DNA of 64,000 nucleotides. It comes from Amoebophrya sp. A120 (lineage: Eukaryota > Protista > Dinoflagellata). Below the pieces are notes generated by a model. The model was given only the letters and a program-made list of their open reading frames with translations. It did not search any database and was not told where the DNA came from. The stretch covers positions 4,341,938 through 4,405,937 of the forward strand of contig CAJINV010000006.1 of assembly GCA_905178155.1 (NCBI GenBank), written 5' to 3'. Below, piece after piece: positions 1-49,100 of the stretch (within the stretch, counting starts at the first letter, position 1; every line of letters begins with the position of its first letter). The position numbers and the translations under genes were made by a program.

Positions 1-181
1 ACTTTTTTGCAGGAACAGCATCACAGATTTGTTTTGCATGACAGAGAAAACCTGCCATGCGTAGCTAGTACGCGAAAACACGTATGAAAATAGCCTGTGA
101 TGCACATCCAGCATGACAAGTGTAGCTGTATTGCAACATCTGCAACACAAAGTTACACTTACACAGTTTTTTTCTTGCATA

Positions 182-3100
182 CACCTGCGGGCGGGTTCAG
201 TGCGGACGGGGGAGCTGAGCAGGATCTAGATCTGTTGAAGCAGTCCTCTTTGTCCACCTCTGCATGGTACGCGTTTTATCGGGATATGGACCGGAATAAC
301 AACAACCTCGTCTCCATGATCGAATTCGAAGCGGTATTGTGAGGAAAAATCTTTCCTCCCCATATTGAAAGCGCATCCATCTTCTGGAAACTTGTGATGC
401 AGATTTGTGAACACAAGTCGCGTCTGTCTTGCAAGAGGGCAAGTGCAGGCTGTCCGGCACGTTATGCAGGCGATTTGTAATGCTGCAAGCCCTACAGGGC
501 AGCCGTCTGCCATGCTAGGCGCCTACACCAAAAGGCCCCGCCCTAGGGTTGCGATCTGACTGCGTGCAGTGCTCTACTGCAACACGGATTTGATTTGTGT
601 ACTCAAATACAGCATCACAAATTTCTTTGTCGATATGGGGAGGGGGGATCTTTCCTTCTGATAAGCGGGGTTGCTTTCTTTAAAATACCCCGACGAATCC
701 ACGGACGCGTCGAGTCGGAAGAATATCCTGTGCAAAAGTACCGTACGCGTAGTAATTGCAAGCATGGATGACAGGGTAAATCCGCGCTACAAATTGTTCC
801 ATGTGTCATGCTGAGCCAAGTTGTATATGCAATTTCTAGTATTATTACCTAGGTAGTGCGATGCTTTTGCAATGCATAAAGAGAAGGAAGAAGCTACTCC
901 AGTTGTTAGATAAGGACGGCTCCGGCGAGCTGACATTTGAGGAATTCGGGCAGGTCCTCGGGTTCAGCGAAAAGGAAATCTACAAGGCAAAGGATGACTA
1001 CCAGAAGAAAAACCTCGGGAAAGACGTATGCAATGTAAAAGCATCGTACTAGTATGAATTGCATTACAAATTAGCCCAGCATTACAAATTGAATTTGTAA
1101 TGCTGATTCACCTTGAGAAAGAAATTTGTAATGCATGCATGCAATTACTACGAATACGATGTTGCTTTTGCTCAGGATAAGACGGGGTGAATCGCAATAT
1201 CCGGTGGAGCGCGACGGAAGAATTTGATTTCCACGCGAGAATCAAAGAGTACGGCAGGAGGTCCCGGAGCACCACGCCGTCGCAGCGGCACTTATCCTGA
1301 GTAAAAGCCCCACACCCCATAGTCAAGTTGGGAAACCTGCAATACAAATCAACAAGCTTTGGCTGTTGCCCATCACAGGTTTTGGCTTGCAATGTGATCG
1401 CGTTTAGCTAGCGCAGCTGCGTCACAAATCTAGCATCTTATGCTGATACGAGCATCACAAATTTCAAAACAGCACTAGAGATGAATGCGTCCTCTCATGG
1501 GGCTCCTCCGCATGAGAAACATTTTAAGCATGCAGATTTGCATGACAAGAACTAAGTAAGTATGGGGTGTGACGTTTTTCCTCAGGATAGCACTCGAAGA
1601 AGATCTACACGGACGAATCCGTGCGGAAAAATATTACAGTGAAAAATGCCCCCACACGTCCGAAAGTTGCAATAATTTGTGATGCGAAGTTTCCAAATGA
1701 AAACTTTTTGTCATGCGTGAAAGAACTATGAGTCTTACCTTTCTGATGCAGAGTCTAGTCGTATACAGCATCGCTTGCACCATCACAAGAGCTGCTCTTG
1801 CTGGGATCTTTTGCAATGCAAATCTTTGCTATTCACGATTGAAGATCTGTGATGCTGATACATGCAAGAGAGCGAGTGTTTCCTTTGGAAAGGTTTGCAA
1901 TACAAATGCTTGAAGTTCATCTGGGGTGGGGGCATCTTTCATTGTCATAAAAAAGCACATGCGCATGATCTCTGCCAGCGACATGTCGCCGGTGCCGCTG
2001 TATTGTGAGGAAAAATCCCCCCTCCCCACAGTGCTCAAAACGGAAATCTGTATTGCTGATTTGTGACCACAGATCGTCTCTCTCTTGCAAGAAGGCAACT
2101 ACGTCAGAGGTGTCCGTCGCACTGCGCGGCGGATTTCTGATGCTGTTGGACCTTCATGGCAGCCGTCTAGCATGCGAAACAGAGACTATACGCAAACAGC
2201 CCCAGCACAACTCAGGCTTGCAACCTGCCTGCGATTCCATCCTGCAAGACAAAGCGAATTCGTGGACACCAATCCAGCAACAGAAATTTCCGTTTCAAGA
2301 TGGGGACGAGGGATTTTTCATTTTCATAGGCTCCTGCCGGGTGGTCGGGTGTCGAAATCAGCTTCTTCAAGTAGGTCGAGAACGAATTTGAGCTCCGCGG
2401 GAACGGGAACAAACAAGTCCATGACGAACCAGTCCTTGACAGACGAATCAACGCAGCAGGGCGGTGGAACGACGTTGCAAGACCACGCTTTTCCCGAAAT
2501 GGAGCAGCAAGACGGGCGGGGAACGAACTATATATGCAATGCAAAAGCATCGTGCTCGTATAAATGCATTACAAATTTCCTCTGCGTGGTGAGAAATAAA
2601 ATCTGTAATGCGGATTTACCTTGCCAAAGAAATTTGTAACGCATGATTGCAATTACTACGACTACGAGTACGAGTACGATAGTTTTGCACAGCATACTAC
2701 AATCGGTTTAGCAACGACAACATGCAACAGGGGCAGCAAAGTGCTGGACAGCATAGTCTATCAAATGTAAAAATGTCTGGGTCTGGAAGAATGCATGTTT
2801 GTCATGCTTGTCTGGCATGACTCTTGAATCTGTCATGCAAGTTACCCAAGAGCCCCATTTTTCTGTGATGCAGAAGCGCACTTTGTCATGCAGAATAGGC
2901 AACACCTGGAAGCTCAGAAACTTGTGATGCTGAGCCAGCATTTCTGGCCTCATCATGAGACGCCACCCAGCATCACAAGTTTCCAGACCCAGACATTTTT
3001 ACATTTGATATAGTCAACATATGAAGAAATCCAGCTCTGCAGGGACCACAAATTCAGCTCCTATCAAACGCAAAAATGTCTGGGTCTGGAAGGATGCGAA

Positions 3101-6100
3101 CTTGTGATGCATACTTGGATCACACAAAAATCTGTCATGCTTAGACAGCAAAGGGAGCTTGCTCCTTTTCCTGTCGCCGAAAGAAGATGCTTGTCATGCG
3201 GATTAAGCATTGCGAAACTGTCTCAAAACCTGCGATGCTAGGCCTTGCATGGCACACCTTCTGTGTCAAGCAGACACAGCATCACAAACCTCAGCAACCT
3301 TCCAGACCCGGATATTTTTGCAATGTATAGCTCCTTCGACGAGACAACAACAGCTGAGTTCCGCTGGCGGCGGAGCGAACAGTGCAACTACCGGGAATAA
3401 TGCGATGGAGCTCATTCCCTTGCAGGAAGACCAGCAGATGACAATGATCTCCGAGACAACGACAATTATCAACCGGTCCGCAACTATGGAACTGTCAGGA
3501 TCGAAATCAACAAAATCGAAATAATTTGTGATGCATAAAATAGATACCAGTTGGAGCCTCAGTTTCCAAGTGGCGCATGACAAATTTCAGGAGCTGCACC
3601 AAAATCCAGTCTGTCATGCTGTTTGGGCAAAGAAGGCTGCTCCTGTCGTGCTACTCTGGCAGCACATCGCCTTCCCCTAAACAGGCTTGCATCGGTCTCA
3701 TTTGCCTGCTCCCCAACACAGGCCTTACTTGCCCAACATTTTATGCATTACAAAACTTTTCGAATTTATCGCTTTCGATCCTGACACATCCATAGCAACC
3801 GCACCGACCAAAACTACTGCCGAAGAGCCGCCAAAGGAATTCGACTACGCCGCTTTTGTATCGCAAGAAAAAACTGTTCCACTGTGAACTTGTGATGCAT
3901 AAAATGGAAGATTGAACTATTTGTCTTGCTACTTCTGCAAGGCATCGGATTTTTAAGCGTGTTTTCCCTATGGGAAATGCGCGCACGGCATGTGTAACAA
4001 ACTTGTGATGCAGATCTTGCAAAATGAAAATTATCACAGTGAAGCAGTTTTTTCGTGGGATAGTTTAAGAAGAAGCAGCAAGCACCAAGCACTGCGCCAA
4101 CAACGCTAACCGACACGAAAAACCAGAACAATCCAGGGTTCAGTCGGAAGTCCCACATTGTTGACCACCCATATCGTACGAAAAAAGTGTTTCACTGAAA
4201 GGATTTTGCAAGTTTTGCATCACAAGTTTGTTCTGCATGACAGAGAAAATTTGCCCTGCGAGATTTCCAAGGGAAAGCACCGCTAAAGATCCATTGTCTT
4301 GCATGTGTGGCAAGACAAACACTTCTGAGATACATTTTCTGCATTACAAGTTCACAGTGAAACAGTTTTTTCTTGCGATAACCCGAAACGGTGGACCAAT
4401 CGGTACGGGCACGTGGATCCGAAAACGCCGAAGCAGTTTCGCGACTCGTTTGACGGATTCGGGTTGTTTTCTACGGAGCATTTGATCATGCAACAGGAGT
4501 GGAAGATCCCGCCCGGTACGGGGGAGGACGACTTTTCCCAATCGAAATGGCGATCGTCCGGTGCACCGCCCAATTGGGTCGACCCGAAGAAGGCGCTGCA
4601 GAAGAAGAAGGACAACATGATCATCGAAATGAAACTGTTCCGGGATTTATCAACTTCAAATATGTCTGGGTCTGGAAACTTGTAATGCTGAGCTGTGAGA
4701 AGCAAGTAGTGAATTCTCTGTAATGCACAGCCAAGCATGAGAAATCTTTGCGCTGCTTAGTGTTACGCTTTCCGCATGACAAAGTGCGTTTTGCATGACA
4801 AGCAAGAAGGTCTCTTCTTGGACACGCATCACAAACTCTTCCGTCATGCCAAGCAAGCATGACAAACCTTGCATCCATCCCGACCCAGACATATTTGCAA
4901 TGCATAGGATTTTCTGGAGTCCAAATACGGGGCGTACGGCTATGAAGGGATGGAGCGGATTATCCTGAGGCAAAACGATCCCACCCCATAGTCAAGATGG
5001 GAAATCTGCTACACAAATCCCTAAGCTTTGGCTGTCGCGCATGACAAATTTGGGCTTGCAATGTACTTTCGTGTTTAGCTTGTGCAGCAGCGTACCAGAT
5101 CCAGTTTGTCATGCTGATTCGAGCATGACAAATCTCACAGCACCACCGGGAAACGCCTCTCATCCTCATGGGTCTCCGCAAGAGAAACACTTCAAGCATG
5201 CAGATTTGCATTACAACTCTGGGGTGGGGACGTTTTCGCACAGGATACGGATCTTCAAAATGATGGACACGAACAGCTCTGTATCAAATGCAAATATGTC
5301 TGGGTCTGGAAGGATGCAACTTGTGATGCTGCCTTTGGACTCTACATAAAATCTGTATTGCGTGAACAGCACAAGAGGTGTAATTTGTGCTACGCGTATG
5401 GCGGACGCAGAAACTTTTCTTCAAGAAACTTTTTTTTTTTACCCATGACCTCGGCCTGTGCATGATAGGCCTTGCAACTTTATATAACGGGTTTACGAAG
5501 GGAGTAGCAAGCCCTGCCACGGCTCATGCCAAGCCAATCGCGTAAGCACTTGCGAAGACGCTTCAGCAGCAACAGGTGCTGCGGGCTTTTGGTGTTCCGC
5601 TAGTCTTGGTCCCGTGTCCCTTTCATTCCCGCACGCCAGCGCCCGTCTTAATCGGGCTTGATGCTACCGGGGCACGCGCCTTCTTGCGCAGCACACGCTG
5701 TGCGGAGGCCACCTTCTGTGTTTCACCGAAGGAGCTGACAAGTGCGCCGCCTGAGGTCGCCATCCCCCTTCGAACGTATTCTGGCGACCCTTAGGGAGGG
5801 TAAAATACGGCCCAAATAGCGTTCTCAAGTGCGGGAAGGCTTCTGCGCCGTTTCCGGAAGCAACGTCGCGGAGAAGGGCGCTGCCGGCCCTTGGCCAATC
5901 TGCCAGAACCCAGCGCGACGCCGGCGACCGTGCGCATAGACAAACCAACCCGCACGAACGGCGCCTCTTGCGCAGAGTTGCCTCGTAGCTCGAAGATGTC
6001 CGACCTCGTCTTGAGGAGACACGCCGAAAACACCAGAGGGGGGCCCCTCGGAGGGGGGTTGGGGGGGTGGGTTGCGCGACCCCCCCTGCGTCCATCATAC

Positions 6101-9100
6101 CATGCGGGCTAGCAAAAAAAGGGGGTCCCGAAGGGGGGGGGGTTTACTCCCCCCCTCCGGGGCCCCTCGAGCCGGCATTTTTGCGCTGCCCAAAAGGATT
6201 TCCCGTTGTCTGCGTTGCCGCCAGGCCGGGCGAAAGACCTGGGGGCTTAGGGCAGTGTGGGGAAGCCCGGCGGAAGAAAGCCCACTGCGCGCGGGGCTCT
6301 GCGAGGTTTTTCTCGTTCTAAGCTAGAGCGCCTCCACGCCGCTAAACCTCGGCGGGGCCCCGCAGAACAGCAGCAGAGAAGATTCAAAGCAACGCCCGTC
6401 CTTTCCTCTGTTTCGGGGGTAGTGAGGTGATGCGCCCAAGCCATGACAGCCCGTCGGCACCTCTCACACTGCTAACGCGTAGCTTTGGTGGCACGAGGAG
6501 CCGGCGATAGTGCCTGCTCTCACAGTAGCCATCACCCCCTGCGGCAGGACCCTCGCCGCACGCACAGACCCTGAGAGGCCGCTTTCCAATTGGTCGCCGA
6601 ATGCCTGAGCGGCTCAGACTGTTCGTCCTGGGTTCTCTTTCTAAGCCGGAGTCAAGGAATGGCTGCGCTAGCGGTTAAGCCGTCCTATCAAGAGGGGGCC
6701 GGCGGCAGGCGAGCAAAAATCGACGGTAGGGCCCGCGCTTGGTATTAGGATGCACAGCTATGGGCAAAAAAAAAAGTTTTTTGAAAAAAAGTTTCTGCGT
6801 CCGCCATAACGTGGAGAGGAGATTTCTCAAGCGTTATGAGCATCAGAAAGCCCTCGCAAAATCTCTGATGCTGGGGCATGCATCACAGACCTCATGGGTC
6901 ATGCAAAATCTGCATGACAAACAACTGCACTCGCCCAGACCCAGACATTTTTGCAATCCATAGTCCGACCGGTTGGGCGTTTCCGCGTTTACCGCGGCCT
7001 TGCAATCGACTCTGAAGTACCCCGACGATGGCTCGATTTCCTTCAACGCACAGAGAAGACGGGTGAATCTGTTTCTCATCATGGATTTGGACGGAATGGG
7101 GAGCTTGGATCGGTACAGAGTTGTACTACAGTTTTGTTTCAGTATCTTGTTGTGATCATGTAGTTGTCATTCTGCAACGCAAATCGCTTTTCGTTTGCGT
7201 TTCCCGCATGACAAATTCATCTAGCCTCGATGATTAAAAAAAAGGTACGAATTCTGCCGTGGTTTGACCCAGCAGCTGGACGCCGGAGTGAATCTGGACG
7301 AGAAATTATTGCAATGAAAAATGCCCCCACCCCGGAACTTGGGAGCATTTGTATTGCAAACCTTTCCAAAGGAAACACTCGCCCTCTTGCATGTATCAGC
7401 GTCGCAGATTTTCAATCGTGAATAGCAAAAATTTGTATTGCAAAAGATCCCAGCAAGAGCGGCGCTTGTCATGCAAGCGGCGCTTTATACGACAAGACTC
7501 TGCATCATGAGAAAGATTCATAGTGCTTTCATGCATGGCAAAAAGTTTTCATTTGGAAACTTCGCGTCACAAACTACTGCAAAATTCGGGGTGGGGGCAT
7601 TTTTCACTGTGATAGAAATTCACCCGCCGCCTCCAGCGGTGGGGTAACGAGAAATCGAAGTGGGTTTTGCTGGCGAAGGGGGCGAAAAATTTGAAAAAAC
7701 CACCGCGGAAAACGTGGCACGATTCTTTGTCCATCGTGAAGCCCGAGAACCTATTGAGAGGAAAAATCCCCCTTCCCCATATTGAAGAGGCATCTTTTCG
7801 AAAATTGATGTTGCTGATTTGAGGTCACAAATCACATTTGTTTTGCAAGAAGACCAGGGCAGAAGCTTCCGCCCCATTACGGAAGCGATTTGTCATGCTG
7901 TTGGGCCTAAAGGGGAGCCGTTTGCCATGCTGAGCAACTAGACGCATACGCCCCTACCTAGCCTGGCGATCTGGCCGCAGTGCTTCCCTGCAATACAAAT
8001 CTGATTTGTGTACGCAAATCCAGCATCACAGATCTCTTTTTCGATATGGGGAGGGGGGATTTTTCCTTTTGATAGAACCCGGTGTCCTATCTAGCAAACG
8101 TCGGACTGTCCGGGGGAAACTCCACGTCGGTGCAGGCGAACAGCGAGGAATTAGCCCGGGCGCAACGGTATCAAATGCAAATATGTCTTGGTCTGGAACA
8201 AACTTGTGATGCAAGGACGGGAATAGTGAGCACACTGTAATACGCTACACAGCATGACAAGTTTTTCCGTGGTTCAGAGTTGCGCACCGCGCATGAGAAA
8301 CTGCGTTTTTGCATGACAGACGCGAGGACCTCCTCGCGGGCACGCAATACAGAGTTCAGAGTCATGCCAGACTAACATGACAAATCTCGCAATCTCCCAG
8401 ACCCAGACATATTTGCAGTTCATAAAAGGGCGAACGCGTTTATCAACGTGAGGAAGAAGCTAGAGCCGATCTATTCCCGGCCGGGCACGATGGGAAACAG
8501 CTATGCATTGCAAATATGTCTGGGTCTGGATGGTTGCAACTTGTGATGCTGCCTTTGGATTCTACACAGAATCTGTCTTGCATGATCAGCAAAAGAGGCC
8601 CATTTTTTGCTACCCGGAGAGGGCTCTCATGCAGTATAGGCATCAGAAAGCCCTCAAAAAATTTGTGATGTTAGGGCATGCATCACAGACACCATGGGGC
8701 ACGCAAAATGTGCATGACAAGCGCTGCACTCTTCCAGACCCAGACACATTTGCATTTGATAACAGCGGGTGCGCGACCAGTTTCGGGCCCCCAAGACCGA
8801 CTACCAGTCCGGATCTGTCGCAGCTGTTTAACATCCTATATCAAAAGGAAAAATCCCCCCTCCCCATATCGAAAAGGCATCCGTTCGAAAATCTGTGATG
8901 CTGATTTGTGGCCACAAATCAGGTCTGTCTTGCACGAGAGCAACGCCAGAGCTTTCGCCGCTTTACGCAGGCGATTTGTAATGCTGCTGCACCAACAGGG
9001 CAGACGTCTGCCATGCTGAGCGCCCACCTCTAGCCAGCCCCTTCCAGGCTTTTTATCTGCCTGCACTCCTATACTGCAAGACAAAGCTGAAGCTGATTTG

Positions 9101-10209
9101 TGTACACAAATCCCGCAACACAGATTGCCACTTTGATATGGGGAGGGGGGTTTTTTTCTTTCGATATCCTGCCCAAATCGAGCAAGGATTCCTCCGGGGA
9201 CAGTAACCGCGGCGTTTTGTCCGCACTAATGAACGCTTCGAAACCAAAAATGAGTGAGAAATCTTTCCTAGCGGATGAGCACAGCCTCTATGCATTGCAA
9301 ATATACCTGGGAGGTCGGGAGGAATGCAAGTTTGTCATGCTCGGCTGGTATGACTCTTAACTCTGTGATGCATGAGCAGGAAAAAAGCCTGCCCCTCGCC
9401 TGTCAACATGCAAAAACGCAGTTCTTTGTCATGCGCAAAGCGAAACACATAGCAGCTCGACAACTTGTCATGCTTGGCCGCGTATTGCAGTGCTTACCCA
9501 TCAATCACAACTTTGCATCACAACTTTCCAGACATCCTGGGCTATTTGCAGTGCATAGCCTCATGCCGGCAACTACGGGGGATGCGGAGGATGATGATGA
9601 AGTGTCGGACATGCTTATCAAATGCAAAAATGTCTGGGTCTGGAAGATTTGTAGACTTGTCATGCATATTTTCCAGAAGCCACGATGTCTGTGATGCATG
9701 CCGTAGCATCACAGATGTGTATCGGGCTTTGTGATACCTCTACCGCATGAGAAATACCCTCTCCACGTAGGACAAACCCGACCCCTCTTGCTGGTCATGC
9801 AATACAATTTTTTTTAGAATCCACAGACAGCATCACAAGTTGTGAGCTTCCAGACCCAGACATTTTTGCATTTGATAATGCTGAAAAACCTGCAAAAGCG
9901 GTTTTTGCAACAGGAGCACGTGCGGGAAGAGCGGAAATCACGGGCCTTGTCCGAAACGGTTGACTTTGCGGAAATGATGTGCAGGATATGCAATGCAAAA
10001 GCATCGTACTAGTATAAATTGCATTACAAATTAGCCAGCATTACAAATTGAATTTGTAATGCTGATTTGCCTTGAGAAAGAGATTAGTAAATGCATGGCT
10101 GCGATTACTACGAGTGCGATACTTTTGCAGTGCATACAGGAGTGCGAACAGCAACGCGATCGCGCAGATGAGCAGCGTCGCGAACTTTGGAGTACAGATT
10201 TCGTCGTGA
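182..10209 (+). CDS. Multi-EF-hand calcium-binding protein, 5'-partial, split by 23 complete introners and one GT-AG intron (802 aa visible)
   Basis: Removing each TA..TA element plus one 5-bp DR gives a continuous ORF (184-10209 minus 7617 nt = 2409 nt) ending at TGA 10207-10209. EF-hand-like loops: DRNNNNLVSMIE, DKDGSGELTFEE, DTNSSDRLGVSA, DLDGMGSLDRYE. The two EF-hand pairs share an LKYPD linker. Confidence 0.85.
335..663. mobile_element. Introner family B (representative; ~315-330 bp; TIR TAT.....GGAAAAATCCCCCCTCCCCATA)
   Basis: DR AGCGG/AGCGG; removal joins MIEFEA to GLLSLKYPDE. Other copies: 2001-2328, 7752-8074, 8839-9166, 35664-35978, 50413-50733, 57193-57513, 61718-62039. Confidence 0.92.
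1027..1179. mobile_element. Introner family C (representative; ~145-165 bp; TIR TAT....TGCAAAAG(T/C)ATCGTACT)
   Basis: DR AGACG/AGACG. Other copies: 724-878 (opposite orientation), 2533-2696, 9987-10136, 16794-16938, 17998-18148, 18188-18346, 20857-21019, 22160-22308, 25931-26078, 46819-46968, 53599-53748. Confidence 0.92.
1293..1589. mobile_element. Introner family D (representative; ~275-300 bp; TIR TATCCTGAGTAAAAACGTCCCCACCCCA)
   Basis: DR GCACT/GCACT. Other copies: 4961-5247, 19600-19878, 21212-21493, 25601-25874, 26131-26420, 31704-31985, 39228-39506, 43663-43942, 50785-51063, 57565-57843, 63867->64000. Confidence 0.92.
1632..1949. mobile_element. Introner family E (representative; ~305-320 bp; TIR TATTACAGTGAAAAATGCCCCCACCCC)
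   Basis: DR AAAAA/AAAAA. Other copies: 7307-7614 (opposite orientation), 17664-17976, 31357-31662, 47541-47858, 54321-54638. Confidence 0.92.
2759..3010. mobile_element. Introner family A (representative copy; ~245-295 bp; TIR TATCAAATGCAAA(A/T)ATGTCTGGGTCTGGAA); most abundant family, with several internal subtypes
   Basis: DR TAGTC/TAGTC. Other copies: 3062-3329, 4648-4906, 5282-6962 (hosts the nested element), 8169-8424, 8502-8761, 9289-9557, 9616-9877, 13421-13682, 15991-16251, 16309-16582, 18871-19132, 19951-20214, 22359-22642, 23317-23574, 23747-24008, 24394-24660, 24901-25154, 25265-25533, 27171-27456, 27770-28014, 28514-28790, 29432-29687, 29799-30067, 30397-30674, 41815-42078, 42133-42394, 42642-42888, 45230-45481, 46491-46746, 47040-47333, 48029-48292, 48394-48655, 51159-51432, 51708-51969, 52482-52740, 52856-53110, 53272-53526, 60052-60306, 60390-60651, 60919-61196, 61398-61659, 62615-62883, plus copies at +6780 in the duplication. 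Confidence 0.93.
3485..3794. mobile_element. Introner family F (representative; ~305-316 bp; TIR TATGG..(G)TGTCAGGATCGAAATC)
   Basis: DR GCAAC/GCAAC. Other copies: 15303-15618, 26761-27074, 48985-49292, 52083-52389, 55765-56072, 58863-59169, 62265-62576. Confidence 0.92.
3859..4062. mobile_element. Introner family G (representative; ~200-220 bp; TIR TATCGCAAGAAAAAA(C/G)TG; several subtypes)
   Basis: DR TTTTG/GTTTA. Other copies: <1-181, 4172-4380, 16989-17199, 31029-31243, 36732-36941, 43040-43258, 43328-43532, 44963-45175, 48745-48947, 55525-55727. Confidence 0.9.
5397..6808. mobile_element. 1412-bp non-autonomous TIR element nested inside a family A introner
   Basis: ~50-bp TIR TATGGCGGACGCAGAAACTTTT...CCCAT / ATGGGC...AAAAGTTTCTGCGTCCGCCATA; DR ACGCG/ACGTG. 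The host introner sequence resumes exactly after it. GC-rich interior with no credible ORF. Confidence 0.9.
7113..7244 (+). other. Canonical GT-AG intron (132 nt) flanked by a GGTAC direct repeat
   Basis: CG|GTACAG...AAAAG|GTACGAA; removal completes the EF-hand loop DLDGMGSLDRYEF. Confidence 0.85.
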
Positions 10210-13200
10210 GGAGATCAAGGGGGTACTAGGGGGAAGAGTGGTCTTTCTCACAGTGTAGTGATGAAGATATGGGTAATATCAACAATGCCAAGAATGCGAA
10301 AAAAAATGAAAACTGTCATAACCAAGCAGAAGAATTCCTATGTGAACAAAAGGAAAAGCGAAACGAAGTGAAGTACTCATCGATTTTTCGTTTATCAATT
10401 TCTTAACTCATTACGTTTAAATTTAATGCCACTTGCTGTCATTCTTAAACCTTGTTTGTATAATGGCTAGAACTTCTTTCATCTGATCTCTAGTGCAAGA
10501 CTTCAGTTGTGCCAGACCACGTATCATCTAAAATTGAACCTAATGCTTACTACCCTCGAACAAGATCCAGCCGCGAAAGCAACTAATGTCTATTAATACC
10601 ACTTTAGGAGAATATTGGAAATCGAATGAACCTGCCACAAAGTCGTGATCTAGTACTTTGTGCACTGGGGCGCTAGCGAGAAGTCCCTCACATAGGAGTG
10701 CACGAGGACGAGTAACGTGCAATCGTGGTTGAGGCTTTATCGCTTCGGTCACGCTTTCTTGACCGAATCTGAAATGAATTATGTACAGGCCTCTCCCACC
10801 TATTGAAATTGAAGAGAATCGGACGATGAACAAATGCACGATGGCGCGACGGTACAGCAGGCGAGCTCGGGGCTGCGAAGCGGAAAGAGCCCTATGTGTT
10901 TTCGTTTTGTTTTGTGTCAGCGTGATATATTTGTAGTCACACCATTATAGCGTTTTTTTTGCCTCCATTTTCTGACCGGCAGAGAGAGACATTTTAGCTC
11001 GACAGATGCTACTTTTCGCCCCTCAATTGTAGATGAAGATTTTGTTTTAGTAGCTTGAAGCAGATATGCAAAAGATCTAGATTTAGACAGAAGTGCTAGT
11101 GCACTTATTTCAGGATCTGGATCAATTTGCTTGTGCATCACGAAACAGAACAAGTGCCGTGAGATCTTCTATAGCATCCGTGGTACTATCATAGTTCTAC
11201 AGTGTGCCTGGTGTGAAGATGTCCGCATATTACAAAACGCAAGCGCTCTACTTTTAGTTTTTACCTCCAGGATCGCGGATGCTGCATCGGAGTTATTTGG
11301 CAGAGGGCAAGATCTAGGTTTTACTAGTAAATCCAAGAGGTGGATTTGTACGTGACGGGAACAAAGCCTGAACAAAGGATCTATTTGGTGTAGTAAGTAG
11401 TCGAGGCGTTGTACTATCGCAAAACTACGTGGCGGTGCTAGGATACTTTATTTCATCTTCAGTAGGTGGTGCTACTGCTAGCTGTAGTGACGAGGCGGTT
11501 TTTTCACTCAGTGCGCAAGCTGTGCCGTTTTCCCCCCCCCTTTAGAGATGAGTTCAAGTAATTTCCGGACAGCAATAGATAAACAAGTCATAGCACAATT
11601 ACCTGTACTCCGAGATGAACAATGCCACTACCTCCAGGTTCGAAAAAAAGACGAAACTTTTTACAACTACGCCTTTTTGTGTGTATAGTGATTTCAATAT
11701 CTGAACGGAAAGCTCGAAGGAGCTGTATCGATTTTGAGAAGCATTTATTAGCTGCTTGGAATCCATCAGACGACAGCAATAAGCCAGACTGTACTTCTCT
11801 CATCTTCATGTATGTTCTCGACGCAACATCAGAGCTGTTCTTGTGTAACATAAAGTTACCTGTAAAAATAGTACCAATACATAGTGGTGTCTGTGTGTGC
11901 TACTAACTAGTGCTCAATCGATTTTTGAGCCATCAATCAGGACAAAAAAATGTTCGAATGAGGGGGCATCAATAGCACTTGACCTGTCCACACGGAATAA
12001 AATCCGCGCCGGCCGCCCTCGGGACAAAAAAACTGTAGTACGCATAGACTGTGCGCAAGTAGACGATCGCTCGGCGGGAAATTTGTAGAAGCCTAGAATT
12101 GATGTCGTTGATACTAGCACGACCATCTTCAAGCAACGAAGAATGGTTTTTTTTGGAGGAGAGCAAACAGTAATTTTTTTTGGTGATCATCTTCAGAGCC
12201 GATCGCAAAACTTTATTTCCACTCCTGCGTTTGTTATTTTTCTAAGAATCTTCACAGAGCGTTCCCTTGTTGCAGGGTTAGAACCTACTCTGTGATATGC
12301 TACTCACTTGACAGCGAAATCGAATCGATTGTCGTGGGACGATAGCAAGAATATTAAAGCCGGTCGGCAGGAGCTGTAGAAAAAAGAACGAAAATTATTG
12401 AGACCAGGGCGTTGTTGTAGTAGTCGTGCGAGTTTAATACTTTTTACAACTAGTACAACGCGTCTATCAAATAAAGCACTCGTCATCACAAGAACTCTCT
12501 TAGGAGGGCAGCACTTGTTATCACAATTCACGACGGAGGAATGAAGCTAGAAAAAGTGTTAAAAGCTTGTACTATTACCAAATTGTGCCTGCGTTTACAT
12601 GTTAAATTTCTTTAACTTTCTAGAAGATTTTTCATCCGAAATCGAACATCATAACAGAGAAAAACCAAAGCAACTTATTCGACGAAACATAGTTTACCAC
12701 ACTTCTGCCTATGTTGAATAAAAAAAAACTGTTCATGAAATCGAAACTACACTTTGCTTTTTTTGAAATTTTTCACTATTTCTTATTCTTGCCCAAAAGT
12801 GGTCTAGGAGGTGGAGGTGGTAGACTTGTAGGTACTTATCGAAAAAGTTGAAAATAAAGCCAGACTTGAAAAGCCAAAGTCAGTTTTCTTCAACAGTAGT
12901 ACCTGATAGCTGGAAATTTGGATATCTGAACACTTTGTCGTTTCAGTATTCAAGTTGTGTACGTAGCTACATTTTTTATCTTCGACGACTTTCTTAGAAA
13001 CTTTTTCTTTTTCACGTAGCTTGCTGCTGACAGACAAGCAGGTGATGTGACAAGAGCTAGTCGCGACGTCGACACAGATCATCTTTGGAATAAGATTTAA
13101 ATACTTTTTGTCGGTCCCGATACTAACTTGACGACGAGGGGGGCCTCCGGTTTAGTAACCCTCCTGCGGATATCTACTTGATGTACTCGCGCGCTTAGCC

Positions 13201-13392
13201 GTGGAGCTGGAGATTACTTCAATATAGCAGGAGAGCGGAGTAGAGGACATCGTCGATCAAGAAGAACCCTTGGCGCTAATAGTCGTCTGTTTTTAGCCGG
13301 AAGACGCGCTGACGGGGGCAGAAGCGACAGCGGCAAAATATTAAATCTCGGGGAAAAAAGATTGTTCCCGAAGAAGACGACCAACTCCGAAG

Positions 13393-28300: not shown

Positions 28301-31300
28301 AGGAAAGACAAACATGATGGCCACGGTCTTGGCGTTTAAGAAGAAGTGCGCGAGGAATTTTCTGCTGCAGGAGCAAATCCTGCAAGTGAGACGGGTCATT
28401 TTGACGCTCTGTTTAGAAGAAGCGAAACAAATCGGGTTTCTCGGCGGGGCACCGCCCGGGCGCCGGGTGCAGCTGCAGAGAATGGATGACTTTGTAGACG
28501 AGGTCGTGCCGAAATTGCATATCAAATATGTCTGGGTCTGGGTCTGGAAAATAAGTGTAAACTTGTCATGCAGGTTTTCCATGACCCATGAGGTCTGGAA
28601 TGCGGGACCTAGCGTGACAGACTCTCTGAGGTCTCTGTCATGCCTATCCCGCATGAGAAACTCCCGTTCAACTTGCGGTCGAAAGTGGACAGCTTTTGGC
28701 ACTCATGCAACACAGATTTTTGCATGATTCGGATTTAGCATGACAAGTTGCCATCTTCCAGACCCCCAGACTACATATTTGCAATCCATATCGAATCCGG
28801 TAAAACTAAAGTTCCTTTCTTTGGAGGAGGTGACGCTGAAAGTGTTCCGCCGATCGGAGAGGGGATTCGTGATGTCTGACTTCAAGCAGCGGGCTTCTGT
28901 CTTGAAGCAAAACCTCAGGCTTGACCGGAACTCTCCCACTGCTTTCCTGAGCGACGTTTTTGCCGAGAGCAAGGAGATGCTTTTGGACCAACAACAAAGC
29001 AGAGCAGGAGATGACCAAAGATTAAACGAGGATGCAAACGCCTTGTGGCTGCGAATTGAAGTGGTAAACAAGGTCGATGTTCCGGAGTTTGCTCTTGCGG
29101 ACGAAGACAATGTAGTGCGGCATGCCGCTTCCTCACCGGCTGAAAACTACAACTACCTTGCCAGCAGCAGCTCTGCCAGCACTACTACACGAATGGCAGA
29201 CCACATGCATGACAACAGCCTCCGTCGCCTACCGCAGCGGCACAACACCATCTCCGGTACAACTGCTAGCGGCTCTGGTAGCAGTCACCCGCTGCTGACC
29301 GAGCTAGCAGTCAATATACCGCGTCGCGACCATCGGGCTAATACCGATTTTTTCGGGGCGGGGACCAATTTCGGAAAAAGTTCCGCTGCAGGAGGCGGTG
29401 CATCATCCTTCTCTCGTGCGCAGATGCAACATATCAACCGCAAATATGTCTGGGTCTGGAAACTTGTGATGCTGGGTGGCGTCTCATGATGAGGCCACAA
29501 GTGCTGGCTCAGCGTGACAAGTTTCTGAGCTTCCAGGTGTTGCCTATTCTGCATGACACACTACGCTTCTGCATCACAGAAAAATGGAGCTCTTGGGTAC
29601 CGTGCATGACAGATTTAAGAGTCATGCCAGACAAGCATGACAAACATGCATTCTTCCAGACCCAGACGTTTTTTTTTGCACTTGATACAACAACTTGTGA
29701 ACGAAAAAGAACAGCAGCAGAGGGACATCAGGAATTGGCAAAAGGAAAAGAAAAAACAGCTGCAGTTCGAATGGACGCTTTTAGGGATGCTCTTTGACTA
29801 CGCATTGCAAATACTATGTCTGGGTCTGGAAGATTGCAACTTGTGATGCGGATTATGGAATAGGCAAAAATTTGTATTGCACGAGCGCCAAAACGAGCCG
29901 CCCATTTCTTGCTACGCAGATAGGGAAGTTCTCATGCAGGATGGGCATCAGAAGGCCTGCGCAAAACCTGTAATGCTTTTGCCTGCATGACAGGCCATTT
30001 GCATAATCCAAAACATGCATGACAAACAAGGGCGTTCTTCCAGACCCAGACATGCTTGCATTTGATATTGACTTTGACATAGACGATGAGGTCACGCTGA
30101 ACGCGATGGGCTTGGACATTCGGCGGAAAAGGGAAATGCTGGAGGAACGAATGGAAAGAGAAGCAGCAGAGGAACAGCAAAGGGAATGGGAATTACAACA
30201 GGAAAGAGAATCGCAGCGTGGTCGGCAAGATGAAGATCGTGAAAATCATACACCTGCTCGGCCTGGTCAAGAAGATGGTGCAACGAGCGATATAGAAGAT
30301 GCAGTAAGCGTAGATCCTGAAGAACACGACCAGCAGCAGTCCTCTCGTCGGCAAGAATCTGGCAAAAAAAATCCGCTCAAAGGGTTTTCGCAAACGTATC
30401 AACTGCAAATATGTGATCTGGATCCATCTGGAGATGACTTGTGTTGCTGAACAAGCTTGTATTGCAGAGTACTAGCCACTTCTTGTATGGCATAACGGCA
30501 TCAGAAATTTTGTGAGGTTTATAATTGCAGATTGAGATTCAATCGTAAAACGCATGACAAACTGGCACCATCCAGCACCACAAAAAAGTTGCTCAGATGA
30601 AATCGCATTCACTCATTATGTCCTTCCAAATACGGAAGAAAAATCTAGACCCAGATCGATATTTGGAATGCATAAAACGCTCGAACGCGACATTTTAACG
30701 CTTTTCATGCTCCAGGAGAGTTTCGCAATGAAGCTTGTGGACTTCACCAGAGACACGCAGCACCTGTGCTTTGGCCTTCTGTTAGACGTGCTGTTCCGTG
30801 TGTTTGCGGGGAGTAGTTCTTCGCCGGGTCGTTCTTGTAGCAGTGAGACAGCAGCAACAAGAGCGGGTCCTCTGGGAACAAGAAGAACTTCTTCTACCAG
30901 TAAAAATAAACCTGACGAAGAACAATCGCTCCTGGAACTGTCCCAGGCTTTACGCAAGATGGCTCTAGGGGAGGGCGGGGGCGCCGTGGTCTTTAATAGA
31001 AGTACTTCCACAGGAGGTGGACCACAATTATCCAGGAAAAAAACTGTGTAAGTGTAACTCGTCTCTAGGAAGAGCAGCATCACAAATTCGTTTTGCATTA
31101 CAGGGAAAACCTGTCATGCGCAGCTAGTACGTGAAAACGCGTATGAAAGTAGCCTGTGACGCAGATCCAGCATGACAAGTGTAACAGTTTTGCACTTTCT
31201 GCGTCACATCAGACTTACACTCACATAGTTTTTTTCTTGCATAATATCAGCCGCCGCAGTATTGCTCCATGTCCCCGGAAATGAGCTTCATTGAGGGCAA

Positions 31301-32295
31301 GCGGATCCTTCAGCAGACCGCGGACCTGTGTATGGATCTGAATCCCATGCTGGGCGTATTACAGTGAAAAGTGCCCCCCACCCCCAAAGTTGCAAAATTT
31401 TGTGATGCGAAGTTTCCAAATGAAAACTTTTTGTCATGCATGAAAGGAGTGCGAATCTTTCTGATGCAGAGTCTAGTCGTGTTTCGCATCGCTTGCTTGA
31501 CAAGCGCCGCTCTTGCTGGGATCTTTTGCAATACAAATTTTTGCTATTCACCATCGGAAATCTGTGATGCTGATACATGCAAGAGGGCGAATGTTTCATT
31601 TGGAAAGGTTTGCAATACAAATGCTTTCAAGTTCGGGGGTGGGGGCATTTTTCATTGTAATAGGGCGTGCTCGGGACGACGACGACGACCACGGCTGCGA
31701 AGGTATCCTAAGGAAAAACGTCCCCATCCCAGAGCCAGAACGGGGATTTTGCAACACAAACCTTGAAGTTTTGGGAGCCCCGCATGACAAATTGCAGGCT
31801 GTAGTGTATTGCAGTTTAGCAAGGGAAGTCGCATGACAAATCCATTTGCTTATCCTGTTTACAGCATTACAAGTTCTTCCAAAACACGATCGGAAATGCC
31901 TATTATGGGGATGCGCATTACAAATGCTCTTGTGCTTGCAGATCTGCATGACAACTCTGGGGTCGGGATGTTTTTACACAGGATAGAAGGTGGTCGGGTT
32001 ATTTGGCGAAGCAGCATCGTCAAATAAAGTTTCCGCAAACTACCCAGGTGCAGCTGTGTCACCACCAGCTTCGTCTTCACAACCCGCAGTTAATAATCTG
32101 CTGTCGATGCAGGAAAAACTGGATCAGCTGTTACTTTTGTTTGAGCAAAATTTCCCGGATTTTTTCGGCACGTCGAACGGAAGTAGTAGAGCACAGGGCG
32201 GTACTAGTACCACCTCGTCGGGTGGTGCTGCCAGTAGTGTGCCTTCTAGCTTCGTCGGGCACGTGCGGTTCCTTCCGCAAAGTCGGGCTGAGTAA
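13393..32295 (+). CDS. Large hypothetical protein (3077 aa) with predicted N-terminal signal peptide, split by 38 introners
   Basis: ATG 13393 follows an in-frame TAA. Spliced N-terminus is MQVFYYTFLLSFLNIAHVVWARG. Span 18903 minus 9669 nt (38 elements plus 38 DRs) = 9234 nt = 3078 codons, with no internal stop, ending at TAA 32293-32295. No domain recognised. Confidence 0.8.
13922..13985 (+). repeat. 33-bp in-frame exonic tandem repeat (KKDAQGNPEV x2)
   Basis: CCAAGAAGGATGCGCAAGGCAACCCGGAGGT occurs twice. Confidence 0.9.
17393..17607. mobile_element. Introner family H (representative; ~215-280 bp; TIR TATGA(C/G)AGTGCACAACTCCCCCTCCCCCTC)
   Basis: DR TGCAA/TGCAA. Other copies: 15653-15931, 18404-18629, 22706-22939, 49522-49737, 50029-50245, 56302-56517, 56809-57025. 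Confidence 0.9.
21631..21742 (+). repeat. Exonic direct repeat (RDDE(I/S)PQLVLGP x2, 75-bp period)
   Basis: GCGCGACGACGAAA.(C/T)CCGCA.CT.GTCCTGGGGCCG occurs twice. Confidence 0.85.
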
Positions 32296-35663: not shown

Positions 35664-35978
35664 TATCAAAAGGAAAAATCCCCCCTCCCCATATCGAAAC
35701 CGAAACTTGTGATGCTGTATTTGAGTACACAAATCGACTTGGATTGCTAGAAGGCCAAGAGACGCAGCTGTGGCCTCGGTTGCAGGCAATTTGTCATGCT
35801 GTTTCCCACTTTTAGTTGTTTTTTGTTATGTTGAAGACGCAAAGGTTTATTCCCACGCCAACCAGCACTACAGTCCGCATCTTTTCCCTTCTAGCATGAC
35901 AAAGCTGATTTGTGGCCACAAATCTGCATCACAAATTTCTAGTGTGAGTATGGGGTGGGGGGATCTTTCATTTTGATA
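35664..35978. mobile_element. Family B element outside any recognised CDS
   Basis: Family B TIRs; left flank AATGA, right flank A+AATGA. Confidence 0.85.
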
Positions 35979-36731: not shown

Positions 36732-36941
36732 TATCGCAAGAAAAAAGTGTTACAGTTACACATTGTGTTGCAAAACACGCATGGCAGACAGCCTCTGTCA
36801 TGCACGAAATGCTTTCAAACCTTGTTTCATACGTGTTTTCCCGTAGGATTTCAGCAATGCAAGTTTTCTCTCTCATGCAGAGAAATTTGTGTTGCTGAAT
36901 TGACAACAAATGTGTAACTGTAACACTTTTTTCTTGGGATA
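36732..36941. mobile_element. Family G element outside any recognised CDS
   Basis: TATCGCAAGAAAAAAGTGTTACAGTTACAC...TGTAACTGTAACACTTTTTTCTTGGGATA; DR CCCAC/CCCAC. Confidence 0.9.
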
Positions 36942-44700: not shown

Positions 44701-45609
44701 GTAATGGAAGTGCGAATGCGACAGGTGGTCCACTGCATTACGGCTGCGGTTGCCCGCTGGATACCGAGCCGACCCGTTTCACGCCCCCGCGACCCCGGGA
44801 GGCGAAGCGAAGCAGAGCTTCGAACGCTTCGGTCGATACGACGGATGAAAGCGGCGTAACGGCCTCGCAGGAACTGCGAAGCGGTTCTTTACTAAGTTCG
44901 TCGCAAGACACTGCGTGGACAGCAGCAGGAGCAGGTACGCCAAGTAGTCCGCCGTCGCTCTCTATGCAAAGAAAAAAGTGATGTTACAGTAACACATTGT
45001 CCTGCAAGACCAGCAAGACAGACGACCTCTGTCATGCGCAAAATGCTTGCGGGTCTCGTTTCGTGTGTGTTTTGCTTTATGATCTCTGCATTACAAGTTT
45101 TCTCCGTCATGTGAGGGGTGTGATGCAGAATTCACTACAAATGTGCTGTAACTGTAACACTTTTTTCCTTGGATTCTCTCCAGACAGTTGTCACCCTCGG
45201 ACTCGCAATCATCGTCGAGGGTGGCGGGCTATCAAGTGTAAAAATGTCTGGGTCTGGAAACTTGTGATGCTGGGTGGCGTCTCATGATGAGGCCACAAAT
45301 GCTGGCTCAGCATGACAAGTTTCTGAGCTTCTAGGTGTTGCCTATTCTGCATGACAAACTGCGTTCCTGCATCACAAAAAAATTGAGCTCTTGGGTAACG
45401 TGCATGACAGATTTAAGAGTCATGCCAGACAAGCATGACAAACATGAATTCTTCCAGACCCAGACATTTTTACACTTGATATGGCAGGCGGGGGCTTGAT
45501 GGGACTGTTTTCGGGTTCTCAAGATTCTACGCCGGACACGAGTTTGCAACAACAGAGCTTTGCCGCCATGATGCAGCACGCCGGTATTTTTGGTAGTATT
45601 TGTATTTGA
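38764..45609 (+). CDS. Hypothetical G/A/S/Q-rich protein (~1387 aa) with an N-terminal hydrophobic segment, split by 11 introners
   Basis: Starts MEVAKMNTY...AQLLVAAQLVIYSCDLLGVGMVSNLFISPIVFAAAA. Span 6846 minus 2682 nt = 4164 nt in frame to TGA 45607-45609. The 3' end is uncertain because a canonical intron near 45583 is possible. Confidence 0.7.
40218..40374. mobile_element. Introner family I (single copy in this window, 157 bp)
   Basis: TATGCAATACAAATTTCCCGTAC...GTACGGGAAATTTGCAGTGGATA; DR TGGGG/TGGGG; removal restores LAMG-PLRRQ. Confidence 0.85.
44113..44361. mobile_element. Introner family J (single copy in this window, 249 bp)
   Basis: TIR TATGGAGTTCTCAAATCGGTTACCTTCTCAAC...GTTGAGAAGGTAACCGATTTGAGAACGCCATA; DR TGTTC/GGTTC; removal restores QVF-QLDG. 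Confidence 0.88.
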
Positions 45610-46154: not shown

Positions 46155-49100
46155 ATGACCAGCACAACATCTGGTACGTCTTTGTTTTCTTGTGCGGTAC
46201 ACGAATCGAAGAGCTTTTGCATTAAACTCTGCATAACGTCACCAAGCGCAAGCGTAAGCAGCAGGATAATCCAAACCGGCGGTACAACAAAACCTTCTGG
46301 CAACCACCTGGTTCGCCACGCGCACAGCAAAACGCCCCGCGGTCGCGTTGGCATGATTTCCTCCCCCGCTTCTCCGAGCCGGCCGCTCGGCGCACAGCGC
46401 AAATCCAACTCCTGCCCGGACATTGCGGCCATGGGTGGGGCAGCAAGCTCGGAGCAAGAGGACATGCGGCAATTGGGTGGCAACAGCACCTATCAGATGT
46501 AAATATGTCTGGGTCTGGAAGATTGCAAGATTTGCCATGTTAATCTGGTATGACTCTGCACTCTGTATTGCGTGGCCACGAATAGCCTCTCTCGCCTGGT
46601 GCCATGCAAAAACGCAGTTTCTCATGCGGAATGCGCAGCACAGAGGCACGAAAAAACTTGTCATGCTTGGCTCCGCATTACAGTTCACCTCTTGTGTACT
46701 GACTTGCATCACAAGTTTCCAGACCCAGACATATTTGCAATGCATAGCACCAGCGGCCACGCGAGCCAAATGTCTACCGATGGCATGAGCAATGTGGCGG
46801 TCGGGTGTCGCTCGAGCATATCCTGTGCAAAAGTATCGTACTCGTAGTAATGGCAGTCATGCATTACAAATCTCCATCCCAAGGCAAAACAGCATGACAA
46901 ATTGCATTTGTCATGCTGACCGAATTTGTAATGCGATTTGTACTAGTACGATGCTGTTGCAATGCATAGAGCATAGCGGGTGACGATTTAGATGACCAGT
47001 TTGAAATCGCTTCGCAGCAAATTGACGCACAGCTTGCTGTATGCATTGCAAATACGCCTGGGTCTGGTTCTGGAAGGTTGCAACTTGTGATGCTGGCTTT
47101 GGATTCAGAAAAAATCTGTATTGCGTGACCAGCCAAAGCGGTCCAGTTTGTGCTACGTGGAGAGCTACCGTTTCTCATGCGGAATAGGCATTACCATTAT
47201 CAGGAAGCCATCTAATAGTGGTCTGTGATGCTAGGTGATGCATTGTAGGCGTCGCGGGTCATGCAAAAGGTGCATGACATACAAACGCTGCACCCTTCGT
47301 CCAGACCCAGATCGATATTTGCAGTTGATGATATGCAGCGGGAGGTGACCTGGATCATCCTGTCGCCGGTAGTTCGCGTAGTGGAGGTGGTGACCTGGAG
47401 AAACTGCACCAGGGACAAATGCAGGCACCTGGTGCACCTGGAGCTACCGCAGCTGGTTGTTTTGCTTTTGCCGGTGGAGTTCCGCAACAACAGCTTCTCC
47501 CTAGCATCTGCGAAACTTTGAACGAAGATATGGCCTCGGATATTACAGTGAAAAAAGCCCCCACGCCCAAAATTGCAATAGTTTGTGATGCGAAGTTTCC
47601 AAGTGAAAGCTTTTTGTTATGCATGAAAGGAGTACGAATCTTTCTGATCCTGATGCAGAGTCTAGGCGTATATCGCAGCGCCTGCATGACAAGCGCCGCT
47701 CTTGCTGGGATCTTTTGCAATTACAAATTTTTATTTTTGCTATTCACGACTGGGAATCTGTAATGCTGATAGATGCAAGAGGGCGAGTGTTTCCTTTGGA
47801 AAGGTTTGCAATACAAATGCTCCCAAGTTCGGGGGTGGGGGCGTTTTTCATTGTAATATCGGAGCTGGGAGCGAAGACGGCATCTTCCCGGGGAAAGATG
47901 AGAAATAATGACCGCAGCTCTTCAAGCAAGGAAAGTTGCACGGCCGGCGACCGAGTTGTAGCTGGTGGAACCGCGGCAGCCGCTTCTTCTATGGAGGACC
48001 TGCCCCGCGTGCCCAGTAACAATACCATTATCAAATGCAAAGATGTCTGGGTCTCGAAGAGTACAAGACTTCTCATGCGGGTTCAACATGACGCATGAGG
48101 TCTGCAATGCAGGAGCTAGCATGACAGATTCTGTGAGATCTCTACCATGCCTATCCTGCATGAGAAACTCACTCCCAACTTGGTCAAAAGTGGTCAGCTT
48201 TTGGTAGTCATGCAACACAAATTTTTGCATGATCCAGATTTAGCATGTCAAGCTGCATCCTTCCAGACATCCAGGGATACTTGCAGTGCATAACCATGAC
48301 GGACGAACAGTTTTCCGAACTGGGCGGCGCGTTCAGCCGGGCGAGTAGCGGAATTATTCGGCAATCCACGAAGGATAGTACCATTACCAGGGCTATCAAC
48401 TGCAAAAATGTCTGGGTCTGGAAGAATGCAACTTGTGATGCTGCATTTGGATTCCAAAAAGATCTGTATTGCATGAGTACCAAAGGGAATGCAATTTTTG
48501 CCACGCTGAGAAGGCATTTTCCATGCGGAATAGGCATCAAGAAGCCCTCAAAAAGTCTGTTATGCTAGGGCATGCATCACAGACATCGTGGCTCATGCAA
48601 AACGTGCATGACAAGTCTCAGAGTCTTCCAGACCCAGACATATTTGCAATTCATAAGGGCCGCGGCGTTGAGTAGCGCAGGTTCCTCGCCAATGCAGGGG
48701 CCTGTATCAACTACCGCAACAAGCGCGGGAAGATGTGGGCGATCTATCGCGAGAAAAAAGTGTTTACAGTTACACATTTGTTCGAATTTCAGCATCACAA
48801 AGAAGACTTGTAATGCGCAGACCACAACATCTTCAAGGGAAAACCCGCACGAAATGAGGCTGGCAAGCATTTTCTGCATGACAGAGGTTGTCTGTCTTGC
48901 TGGTCTTGCGTCAGAGTGTGTAACTGTAACACTTTTTCCTTGTGATACGATCCTCTGCTGCTCTACTACAACATGCGGGAGGAGTATGGAAGCGTCAAGT
49001 TTGAAATCGACAAAGTTGAAATGATTTGTCATGCATAAATTGCAAGGCATGAAGTGCCTATCTTGCCGGGATGGCAAGCGAGGCCGATTGTGAGCCTGTT

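What the first reader, a model, noticed from the sequence alone, without database searches (positions are those of the whole stretch)
724..7614. Removal is orientation-independent: the same family is excised in both orientations from a sense-strand gene
Seen: family C 724-878 versus 1027-1179 and family E 1632-1949 versus 7307-7614 are reverse complements within gene 1. Family A 2759-3010 is close to the reverse complement of 29432-29687 and 45230-45481. All restore the frame. Established: spliceosomal signals (donor, branch point, acceptor) are directional. Inference: recognition is symmetric and based on structure or paired ends. It may resemble euglenid non-conventional introns or endonuclease/ligase splicing, or it may be DNA-level excision as for ciliate IESs.
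Basis: partly seen in the sequence, partly recalled or inferred. Interest (0 to 1): 0.8.

Follow-up and report, generated by a model that had tools for sequence, protein, structure and literature searches.

The report
Two-way transposon introns of Amoebophrya type
A protist gene is interrupted by 23 small transposon-like inserts that are all missing from its assembled transcripts whichever way round they sit; they match the known Amoebophrya 'introners' and are likely cut from the RNA by a machine that measures from the hairpin at their ends.

Summary
Observation confirmed. The inserts are 145-330-nt inverted-repeat elements (TAT...ATA) with 5-nt direct repeats, matching the published Amoebophrya A120 introner elements. 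In gene 1, contigs of two transcript-like runs lack all 23 elements plus exactly 5 nt each, and one GT-AG intron. Four families occur there in both orientations. A DNA-like run keeps the elements, so removal is at RNA level; IES-type excision is unlikely. The inference 'both orientations, so not spliceosomal' does not follow, because Polarella introners splice either way round. But only 6 of 96 elements offer GT-AG at any register. One thing I did not find in print: a single cut register fits all 13 readable junction edges, 1 nt before TAT and 4 nt after ATA. It rests on five informative junctions. It would keep U at +2 and put an invariant A at -7. Best guess: a hairpin-guided, U1-less spliceosome (0.5); rival: Euglena/SOS-type cut-and-ligate (0.35). 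The scan noted similar hairpin introns in other genomes.

The parts
184..10209 (+). Gene 1 reading frame (5' part lies outside the window): 802 codons after splicing, with an EF-hand; interrupted by 23 inverted-repeat elements and one GT-AG intron
   Evidence: Pfam EF-hand_1 E 1.5e-6 on exon 879-1022; 8 exon pieces in transcript-like contigs with 0 mismatches
335..663 (+). Element, family 3 (with 2001-2328, 7752-8074, 8839-9166 in the same orientation; 50413 and 61718 reversed)
724..878 (+).
1027..1179 (-). Element, family C, opposite orientation to 724; perfect 5-nt direct repeat
1293..1589 (+). Element, family 2 (also 4961-5247)
1632..1949 (+).
2001..2328 (+). Element, family 3; diverged direct repeat gives cut 1<=k<=4
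2533..2696 (-). Element, family C; diverged direct repeat gives cut k=4 or 5
2759..3010 (+).
3485..3794 (+). Element, family 4
3859..4062 (+). Element, family 8
4172..4380 (-). Element, family 8, reversed relative to 3859; diverged direct repeat gives cut k<=4
4648..4906 (-). Element, family A, reversed (also 8169-8424 and 9616-9877 in gene 1)
5282..6962 (+). Family A element carrying a nested insertion; absent from the transcript; diverged direct repeat gives cut k=4 or 5
5397..6808 (.). Nested 1,412-nt GC-rich element with its own 43-nt inverted repeat (95%), TAT...ATA ends and a 4-of-5 direct repeat; no long ORF (longest 159 codons stop to stop)
7113..7244 (+). Canonical GT-AG intron, 132 nt, absent from the transcript-like contigs
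7307..7614 (-). Element, family E, reverse complement of 1632-1949; folds a closing terminal stem, z -6.9
9987..10136 (-). Element, family C, last intron of gene 1
29432..29687 (-). Family A element in gene 2 (frame 13345-32295), reversed relative to 2759; frame evidence only
45230..45481 (-). Family A element in gene 3 (frame 38701-45609), reversed relative to 2759; diverged direct repeat, untested on RNA
46819..46968 (+). Second family C element in the orientation of 724, in gene 4; frame evidence only

Best explanation
These are Amoebophrya-type introner elements that are absent from the transcripts in either orientation, likely because a modified spliceosome recognises the hairpin formed by their inverted ends and likely cuts at a fixed distance from it. 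Shown: TAT...ATA ends, 5-nt direct repeats, both orientations within families, exact loss of element plus 5 nt from gene 1 transcripts, retention in a DNA-like run. Inferred: insertion as non-autonomous DNA transposons with a 5-bp target duplication. Also inferred: a cut 1 nt upstream of TAT and 4 nt downstream of ATA in the direction of transcription, which removes exactly one duplication and leaves the mRNA unchanged. In that register the intron starts N-U-A, like the +2/+3 of a GU-A donor, and the first A of the closing ATA sits at -7, where it would be placed to act as branch point. Because both ends are inverted copies, either orientation would present the same signals. Untested: the spliceosome's involvement, the branch point and any lariat.
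For: Exact accounting for 23 of 23 elements plus a GT-AG intron in contigs of two samples. Four families in both orientations in gene 1; 10 of 11 multi-copy families in both orientations window-wide, none departing from 50:50 at p<0.05 (lowest p 0.07). k=4 is the only register allowed by 13 of 13 readable junction edges, 5 of which are informative; k=5 makes a stop at 31029. At k=4, 95 of 96 introns have T at +2. The A third from the element's end is invariant in 96 of 96. The first two end bases deviate in 1 of 96 ends lying 5' but in 8 of 96 lying 3' (Fisher p 0.035, post hoc), an asymmetry that follows the transcript. Terminal stem predicted in 80 of 95 elements. Literature: A120 elements start TAT + 7 nt + A-run; U2, U4, U5, U6 and 83 of 89 proteins found, U1 not; all 9 top A120 non-canonical motifs start N-T, and all 9 top A25 motifs start TT; either-orientation introners in Polarella; spliceosomal removal of inverted-repeat non-canonical introns in Fritillaria.
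Against: No G at +1 and no AG at the 3' end: GT-AG is available at any register in 6 of 96 and G[TCA]-AG in 12 of 96, and the direct repeats are flat in composition. The bases before the proposed branch A vary, TTGAT in only 23 of 96. No strand-specific selection on the hairpin: G.U 97 vs A.C 91, p 0.72, and equal folding on both strands. The internal GCA(T/A)NACAA motif is symmetric (255 sense vs 257 antisense) and is weaker near the 3' end than its mirror near the 5' end (p 0.018), which argues against it being a branch site. Only two junctions force k>=4 and they belong to different families, so a register tied to the element's own axis (k=4 one way, k=1 the other) is not excluded. The published motif table may reflect how the aligner placed ambiguous junctions.
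Confidence: 0.5

Rival explanations
1. A spliceosome-independent, hairpin-triggered cut-and-ligate system removes the elements from RNA, as proposed for euglenid nonconventional introns and shown for SOS splicing (RTCB ligase) in animals.
For: No terminal dinucleotide consensus; U1 not found in Amoebophrya. The Euglena signature 5'-N3CDG...CH'GN5-6|R has a similar 2-3 nt longer 3' overhang beyond the paired motif. Euglenid introns are released as circles, not lariats. SOS splicing is triggered by inverted-repeat pairing.
Against: SOS splicing is imprecise and leaves indels, while the assembled transcripts here are exact for 23 of 23 (contigs hide rare isoforms). T at +2 and the transcript-side asymmetry of the end bases look like a donor site. 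The same inverted/direct repeat layout is reported in 15% of canonical A120 introns.
Confidence: 0.35
2. RNA-level removal with no fixed transcript-side register: the cut slides within the direct repeat or follows the element's own axis.
For: 70 of 96 direct repeats are perfect, so most junctions cannot be placed; only 5 RNA junctions are informative; Farhat et al. describe the borders as variable or unknown.
Against: One register fits 13 of 13 edges, two junctions exclude k=0-3 and three exclude k=5, and the frame excludes k=5 at 31029.
Confidence: 0.09
3. DNA-level excision like ciliate IESs, leaving element-free somatic alleles.
For: Transposon-like ends, orientation independence and one direct repeat left behind; 1,648 joints were not displayed, so a minor element-free DNA form is not excluded.
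Against: DNA-like run X1 has contigs through element-exon junctions at depth 24-33, one covering all of 724-878 with both flanks. It covers 5505-6536 at depth 35-87 where X3 and X5 have 0. The element-free contigs also lack the GT-AG intron, so they are spliced RNA. No germline/soma nuclear dimorphism is known in dinoflagellates (own knowledge).
Confidence: 0.04
4. Reverse-transcriptase template switching across hairpins flanked by direct repeats, an artefact.
For: Hairpin plus short direct repeats is the classic setting for this artefact (own knowledge).
Against: Retaining any one element closes the frame in 72 of 72 cases, so the genes need removal in vivo; all 23 are missing together from single contigs.
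Confidence: 0.02

Closest known systems
Introner elements among the non-canonical introns of Amoebophrya sp. A120 (Farhat et al. 2021, PMC7789003)
   Same: TAT start + 7 loose nt + A-run, inverted ends, 3-5-nt direct repeats, many families, about 240 nt, hairpin, mixed with GT-AG introns, co-oriented genes, removal supported by RNA.
   Different: No difference in kind. The passages and supplement text read do not discuss element orientation, and they leave the border position unknown; this window adds both-orientation removal and a candidate fixed register.
Polarella glacialis and Aureococcus anophagefferens introners (Roy et al., bioRxiv 2020.10.14.339549)
   Same: Transposon-derived introns created in either orientation, with target-site duplications.
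   Different: They carry or co-opt G[TCA] and AG sites and need particular target sequences; here the duplication is unconstrained and G[TCA]-AG is available in 12 of 96.
Euglenid nonconventional introns (PMC12501133, PMC11282704)
   Same: Paired ends, no GT-AG, slidable borders, paired motif set asymmetrically from the cuts.
   Different: Euglena pairs CDG/CHG 3 and 5-6 nt from the cuts and wants a purine after the 3' cut; here TAT/ATA lie 1 and 4 nt from the inferred cuts, with no purine bias.
SOS splicing of DNA transposons in C. elegans and human cells (PMC12779559)
   Same: Inverted-repeat pairing triggers removal of a transposon from mRNA without GU-AG.
   Different: SOS cuts at several sites and leaves indels; the assembled transcripts here are exact. 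AKAP17A, CAAP1 and RTCB could not be looked for in this organism.
Fritillaria borealis non-canonical introns (PMC11282704; bioRxiv 2025.08.15.670264)
   Same: MITE-derived introns with inverted repeats, described as removed by an adapted U2 spliceosome.
   Different: Preferred ends AG-AC / AG-AT and a conserved U1; here no preferred ends, and U1 is reported missing in Amoebophrya.

Membership tests
Amoebophrya A120-type introner element | Inverted repeat starting TAT, 7 loose nt, then an A-run | tested here: met
   TAT at 92 of 96 5' ends and 88 of 96 3' ends; A in 81-88 of 96 at positions 11-13
Amoebophrya A120-type introner element | 3-5-nt direct repeat at the borders | tested here: met
   5-nt repeat, perfect in 70 of 96
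Amoebophrya A120-type introner element | Repeated families of non-canonical introns | tested here: met
   11 families of 2-39 copies and 5 singletons among 98; GT-AG possible in 6 of 96
Amoebophrya A120-type introner element | Removed from RNA | tested here: met
   23 of 23 in gene 1; genes 2-4 not tested on RNA
Amoebophrya A120-type introner element | Host is Amoebophrya; sequence match to published families | not testable with these tools
   No genome held; protein searches gave no named relative. The assignment rests on element anatomy.
U2 spliceosomal intron | GT/GC donor and AG acceptor | tested here: not met
U2 spliceosomal intron | Branch point and lariat intermediate | not testable with these tools
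   Only an invariant A at inferred -7; no lariat data
Euglenid nonconventional intron | N3CDG...CHG N5-6|R signature | tested here: not met
   Ends are TAT/ATA and the flanks are flat in composition
Euglenid nonconventional intron | Released as full-length circle | not testable with these tools
   needs excised-RNA data
SOS splicing substrate | Paired inverted terminal repeats in mRNA | tested here: met
   predicted folds
SOS splicing substrate | Imprecise cuts with indels | tested here: inconclusive
   Dominant form exact, but contigs drop rare isoforms and no raw reads of this strain were laid
Ciliate IES | Element-free somatic DNA | tested here: inconclusive
   The DNA-like run shows elements in place; most joints were not displayed and life stages are unknown
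Group I/II or other Rfam RNA family | Match at gathering score | tested here: not met
   0 matches in 64,000 nt

The most novel reading that the evidence does not exclude
Amoebophrya runs a sequence-blind ruler splicing machine, separate from the spliceosome, that finds any TAT/ATA-closed hairpin and cuts 1 nt before and 4 nt after it. Any transposon with these ends and a 5-bp target duplication then becomes a scar-free intron in either orientation, tens of thousands of times per genome.
Probability: 0.3. Interest if true: 0.8.

Novelty: already known. Interest (0 to 1): 0.45.

Why it matters
How Amoebophrya removes the roughly 60% of its introns that lack GT-AG, apparently without U1, has been open since 2021. 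The elements are known, and two-way introners are known elsewhere. What this window adds is a way in. Orientation independence shows that the signals lie in the symmetric ends, and diverged target duplications can place the otherwise unplaceable cut. If the 1+4 register holds genome-wide it gives a concrete prediction (U at +2, branch at the A at -7) that one lariat-sequencing experiment can confirm or kill, and it explains why insertions are silent in the protein.

Tried and rejected
Whole-genome tally: no genome is held for this window, so all counts are for 64 kb. Run search: no RNA holder listed on record; X3 and X5 are RNA by the tool's guess, and I treat them as spliced RNA because they lack a GT-AG intron. 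The raw-read RNA run X10 gave 9 partial reads and told nothing. An early idea that the flanks carry A at -6 or an AG acceptor was rejected: composition is flat. The internal GCA(T/A)NACAA motif as branch site: not supported. Strand-specific selection on the hairpin: none. Removal of element + 2 or + 8 nt also keeps long frames, but the transcript lengths fix +5. Searches for a full-length annotated protein of genes 2 and 3, to read junction residues: nothing at E<=0.001 (length-limited, weak evidence), and only a 109-residue piece identical to the query exon. Rfam: 0 hits. No long ORF in the nested 1.4-kb element. Rows dropped before counts: 1 false candidate at 38106; 17 elements in the duplicated copy, including the hybrid at 53272; 2 elements outside modelled genes; 2 partial elements at the window edges. 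Nine elements were added by eye. The left end of 28514-28790 is ambiguous by 6 nt and accounts for the single 5' deviation at positions 1-2. Huff et al. 2016 could not be read and is known here only through Roy et al.
Full report
What is there. The window holds four + strand reading frames broken by short elements that start TAT, end ATA, have inverted ends and are flanked by a 5-nt direct repeat. A scan plus nine additions by eye gave 115 elements; 98 remain after dropping the second copy of a 6,780-nt tandem duplicate, and 96 lie in modelled genes. The repeat is perfect in 70 of 96 and flat in base composition. Removing each element plus 5 nt opens frames of 802, 3093 and 1408 codons, and 1418 in gene 4 with one duplicate copy dropped. 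Retaining any one element closes the frame in 72 of 72 cases in genes 1-3.

Orientation. The named pairs check out: family E 86% and family A 91-94% as reverse complements. The family C pair is weak alone but is placed by its family. Ten of 11 multi-copy families occur in both orientations among genic copies (25/14, 2/9, 6/4, 4/2, 2/4, 4/1, 3/2, 1/2, 2/1, 1/1; one family 2/0), with no inconsistent edge and no departure from 50:50 at p<0.05. Inside gene 1, families A (5/3), C (1/3), E (1/1) and family 8 (1/1) sit both ways round.

RNA versus DNA. One lay of public contigs on 1-10300 gave, in runs X3 and X5 from two samples, single contigs made of exon pieces in order with no mismatch. Their offsets equal the elements plus 5 nt each in six of seven blocks; the seventh leaves 132 nt, which is the GT-AG intron 7113-7244. 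So 23 of 23 elements are gone, and loss of the canonical intron marks these contigs as spliced RNA, although the tool only guesses their kind. Run X1 behaves as DNA. It has contigs through element-exon junctions at depth 24-33, one spanning 724-878 with both flanks, and it covers the unique intron interior 5505-6536 where X3 and X5 have none. Most joints were not displayed, so a minor element-free DNA form is not excluded. Genes 2-4, including the partners at 29432 and 45230, were not tested on RNA.

Where the cut falls. Let k be the number of bases of the left direct repeat kept in the mRNA. All 13 piece edges next to an element follow the tool's leftmost convention. Five are informative: 724 (k 0-4), 2001 (1-4), 2533 (4-5), 4172 (0-4), 5282 (4-5). 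Only k=4 fits all, and k=5 creates a stop at 31029. The intron would then be N-TAT...ATA-NNNN. T stands at +2 in 95 of 96. The first A of the closing ATA is invariant in 96 of 96 and would be at -7. The first two end bases deviate in 1 of 96 ends lying 5' and 8 of 96 lying 3' (p 0.035, post hoc). A mirror-symmetric DNA constraint would not give that skew. Limits: the two junctions forcing k>=4 are in different families, so a register tied to the element's axis is not excluded.

Results against my reading. GT-AG is available at some register in only 6 of 96 and G[TCA]-AG in 12 of 96. The bases before the proposed branch A vary. Both strands fold equally (80 and 81 of 95 with a paired terminal stem) and there is no G.U excess on the transcribed strand (97 vs 91). 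The internal repeated motif is symmetric and not favoured at the 3' end. Its nearest copies cluster at 42-43 and 50-55 nt from the ends, about one DNA helical turn apart, which I read as a possible DNA-binding site for mobilisation (inference).

Mechanism. I commit to RNA-level removal guided by the terminal hairpin, most likely by a modified spliceosome without U1 (0.5). The inverted ends would supply the +2 U, +3 A and a branch A in either orientation, and the 3' cut would be set by distance. A branch A 6-8 nt from the 3' end occurs in group II introns and in some compact spliceosomal introns (recalled, no call). The main rival is spliceosome-independent cutting and ligation (0.35). Sliding cuts, DNA excision and a reverse-transcription artefact are less likely.

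Comparison with print. PMC7789003 (abstract, passages, sections 11, 12, 16, 32, supplement text; figures not seen) describes A120 introner elements with the same TAT + 7 + A-run ends and direct repeats, 29,850 in 1,954 families. It reports U1 missing and says the border position is unknown. The word 'orientation' occurs 4 times in its main text and 3 times in its supplement; the passages shown concern gene order. Its top A120 non-canonical motifs all begin N-T, compatible with k=4 but possibly shaped by the aligner. bioRxiv 2020.10.14.339549 (passages) reports Polarella classes that create introns in either orientation, as in Aureococcus, so two-way removal does not exclude a spliceosome. PMC12501133 (passages), PMC12779559 (passages), PMC11282704 (passages and section 6) and bioRxiv 2025.08.15.670264 (passages) give the Euglena, SOS and Fritillaria parallels. 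PMC9860276, PMC12130899 and PMC11453091 (passages) add nothing on orientation in Amoebophrya. Six library searches listed no paper whose title or abstract start reports orientation independence or a fixed register for these elements; most subscription journals are not held.

Verdict. The useful addition is the candidate 1+4 register, which is thin but cheap to test. Interest 0.45.

Noticed in passing
window 46706-53512 and 53486-60292: A 100% identical tandem duplicate (6,807 nt, period 6,780) whose junction lies inside a family A element (hybrid 53272-53526 with unmatched flanks). It breaks the frame of gene 4, and dropping one copy restores it, so it is probably an assembly error or a very recent unequal crossover.
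   Followed up: partly
window 5397-6808: A 1.4-kb GC-rich element with its own TAT...ATA ends and 43-nt inverted repeat nested inside a family A element: an intron within an intron, and a possible trace of a larger parent transposon.
   Followed up: partly
window 7113-7244: The canonical GT-AG intron holds two sense copies of the elements' internal motif (7172, 7204), against 16 hits in 32,837 nt outside elements, and has an A-run instead of a pyrimidine tract before AG; it may be a decayed element.
   Followed up: no
window 35664-35978 and 36732-36941: Two elements lie in the AT-rich stretch between genes 2 and 3, where no gene was modelled.
   Followed up: no
window 45600-46300: Gene 3's frame stops at 45607 in an AT-rich stretch that may hold canonical introns joining genes 3 and 4 into one long gene.
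   Followed up: no
window 13345-32295, 38701-63860: Very long, low-complexity predicted proteins; the two long exons searched had no relative beyond an identical fragment.
   Followed up: partly
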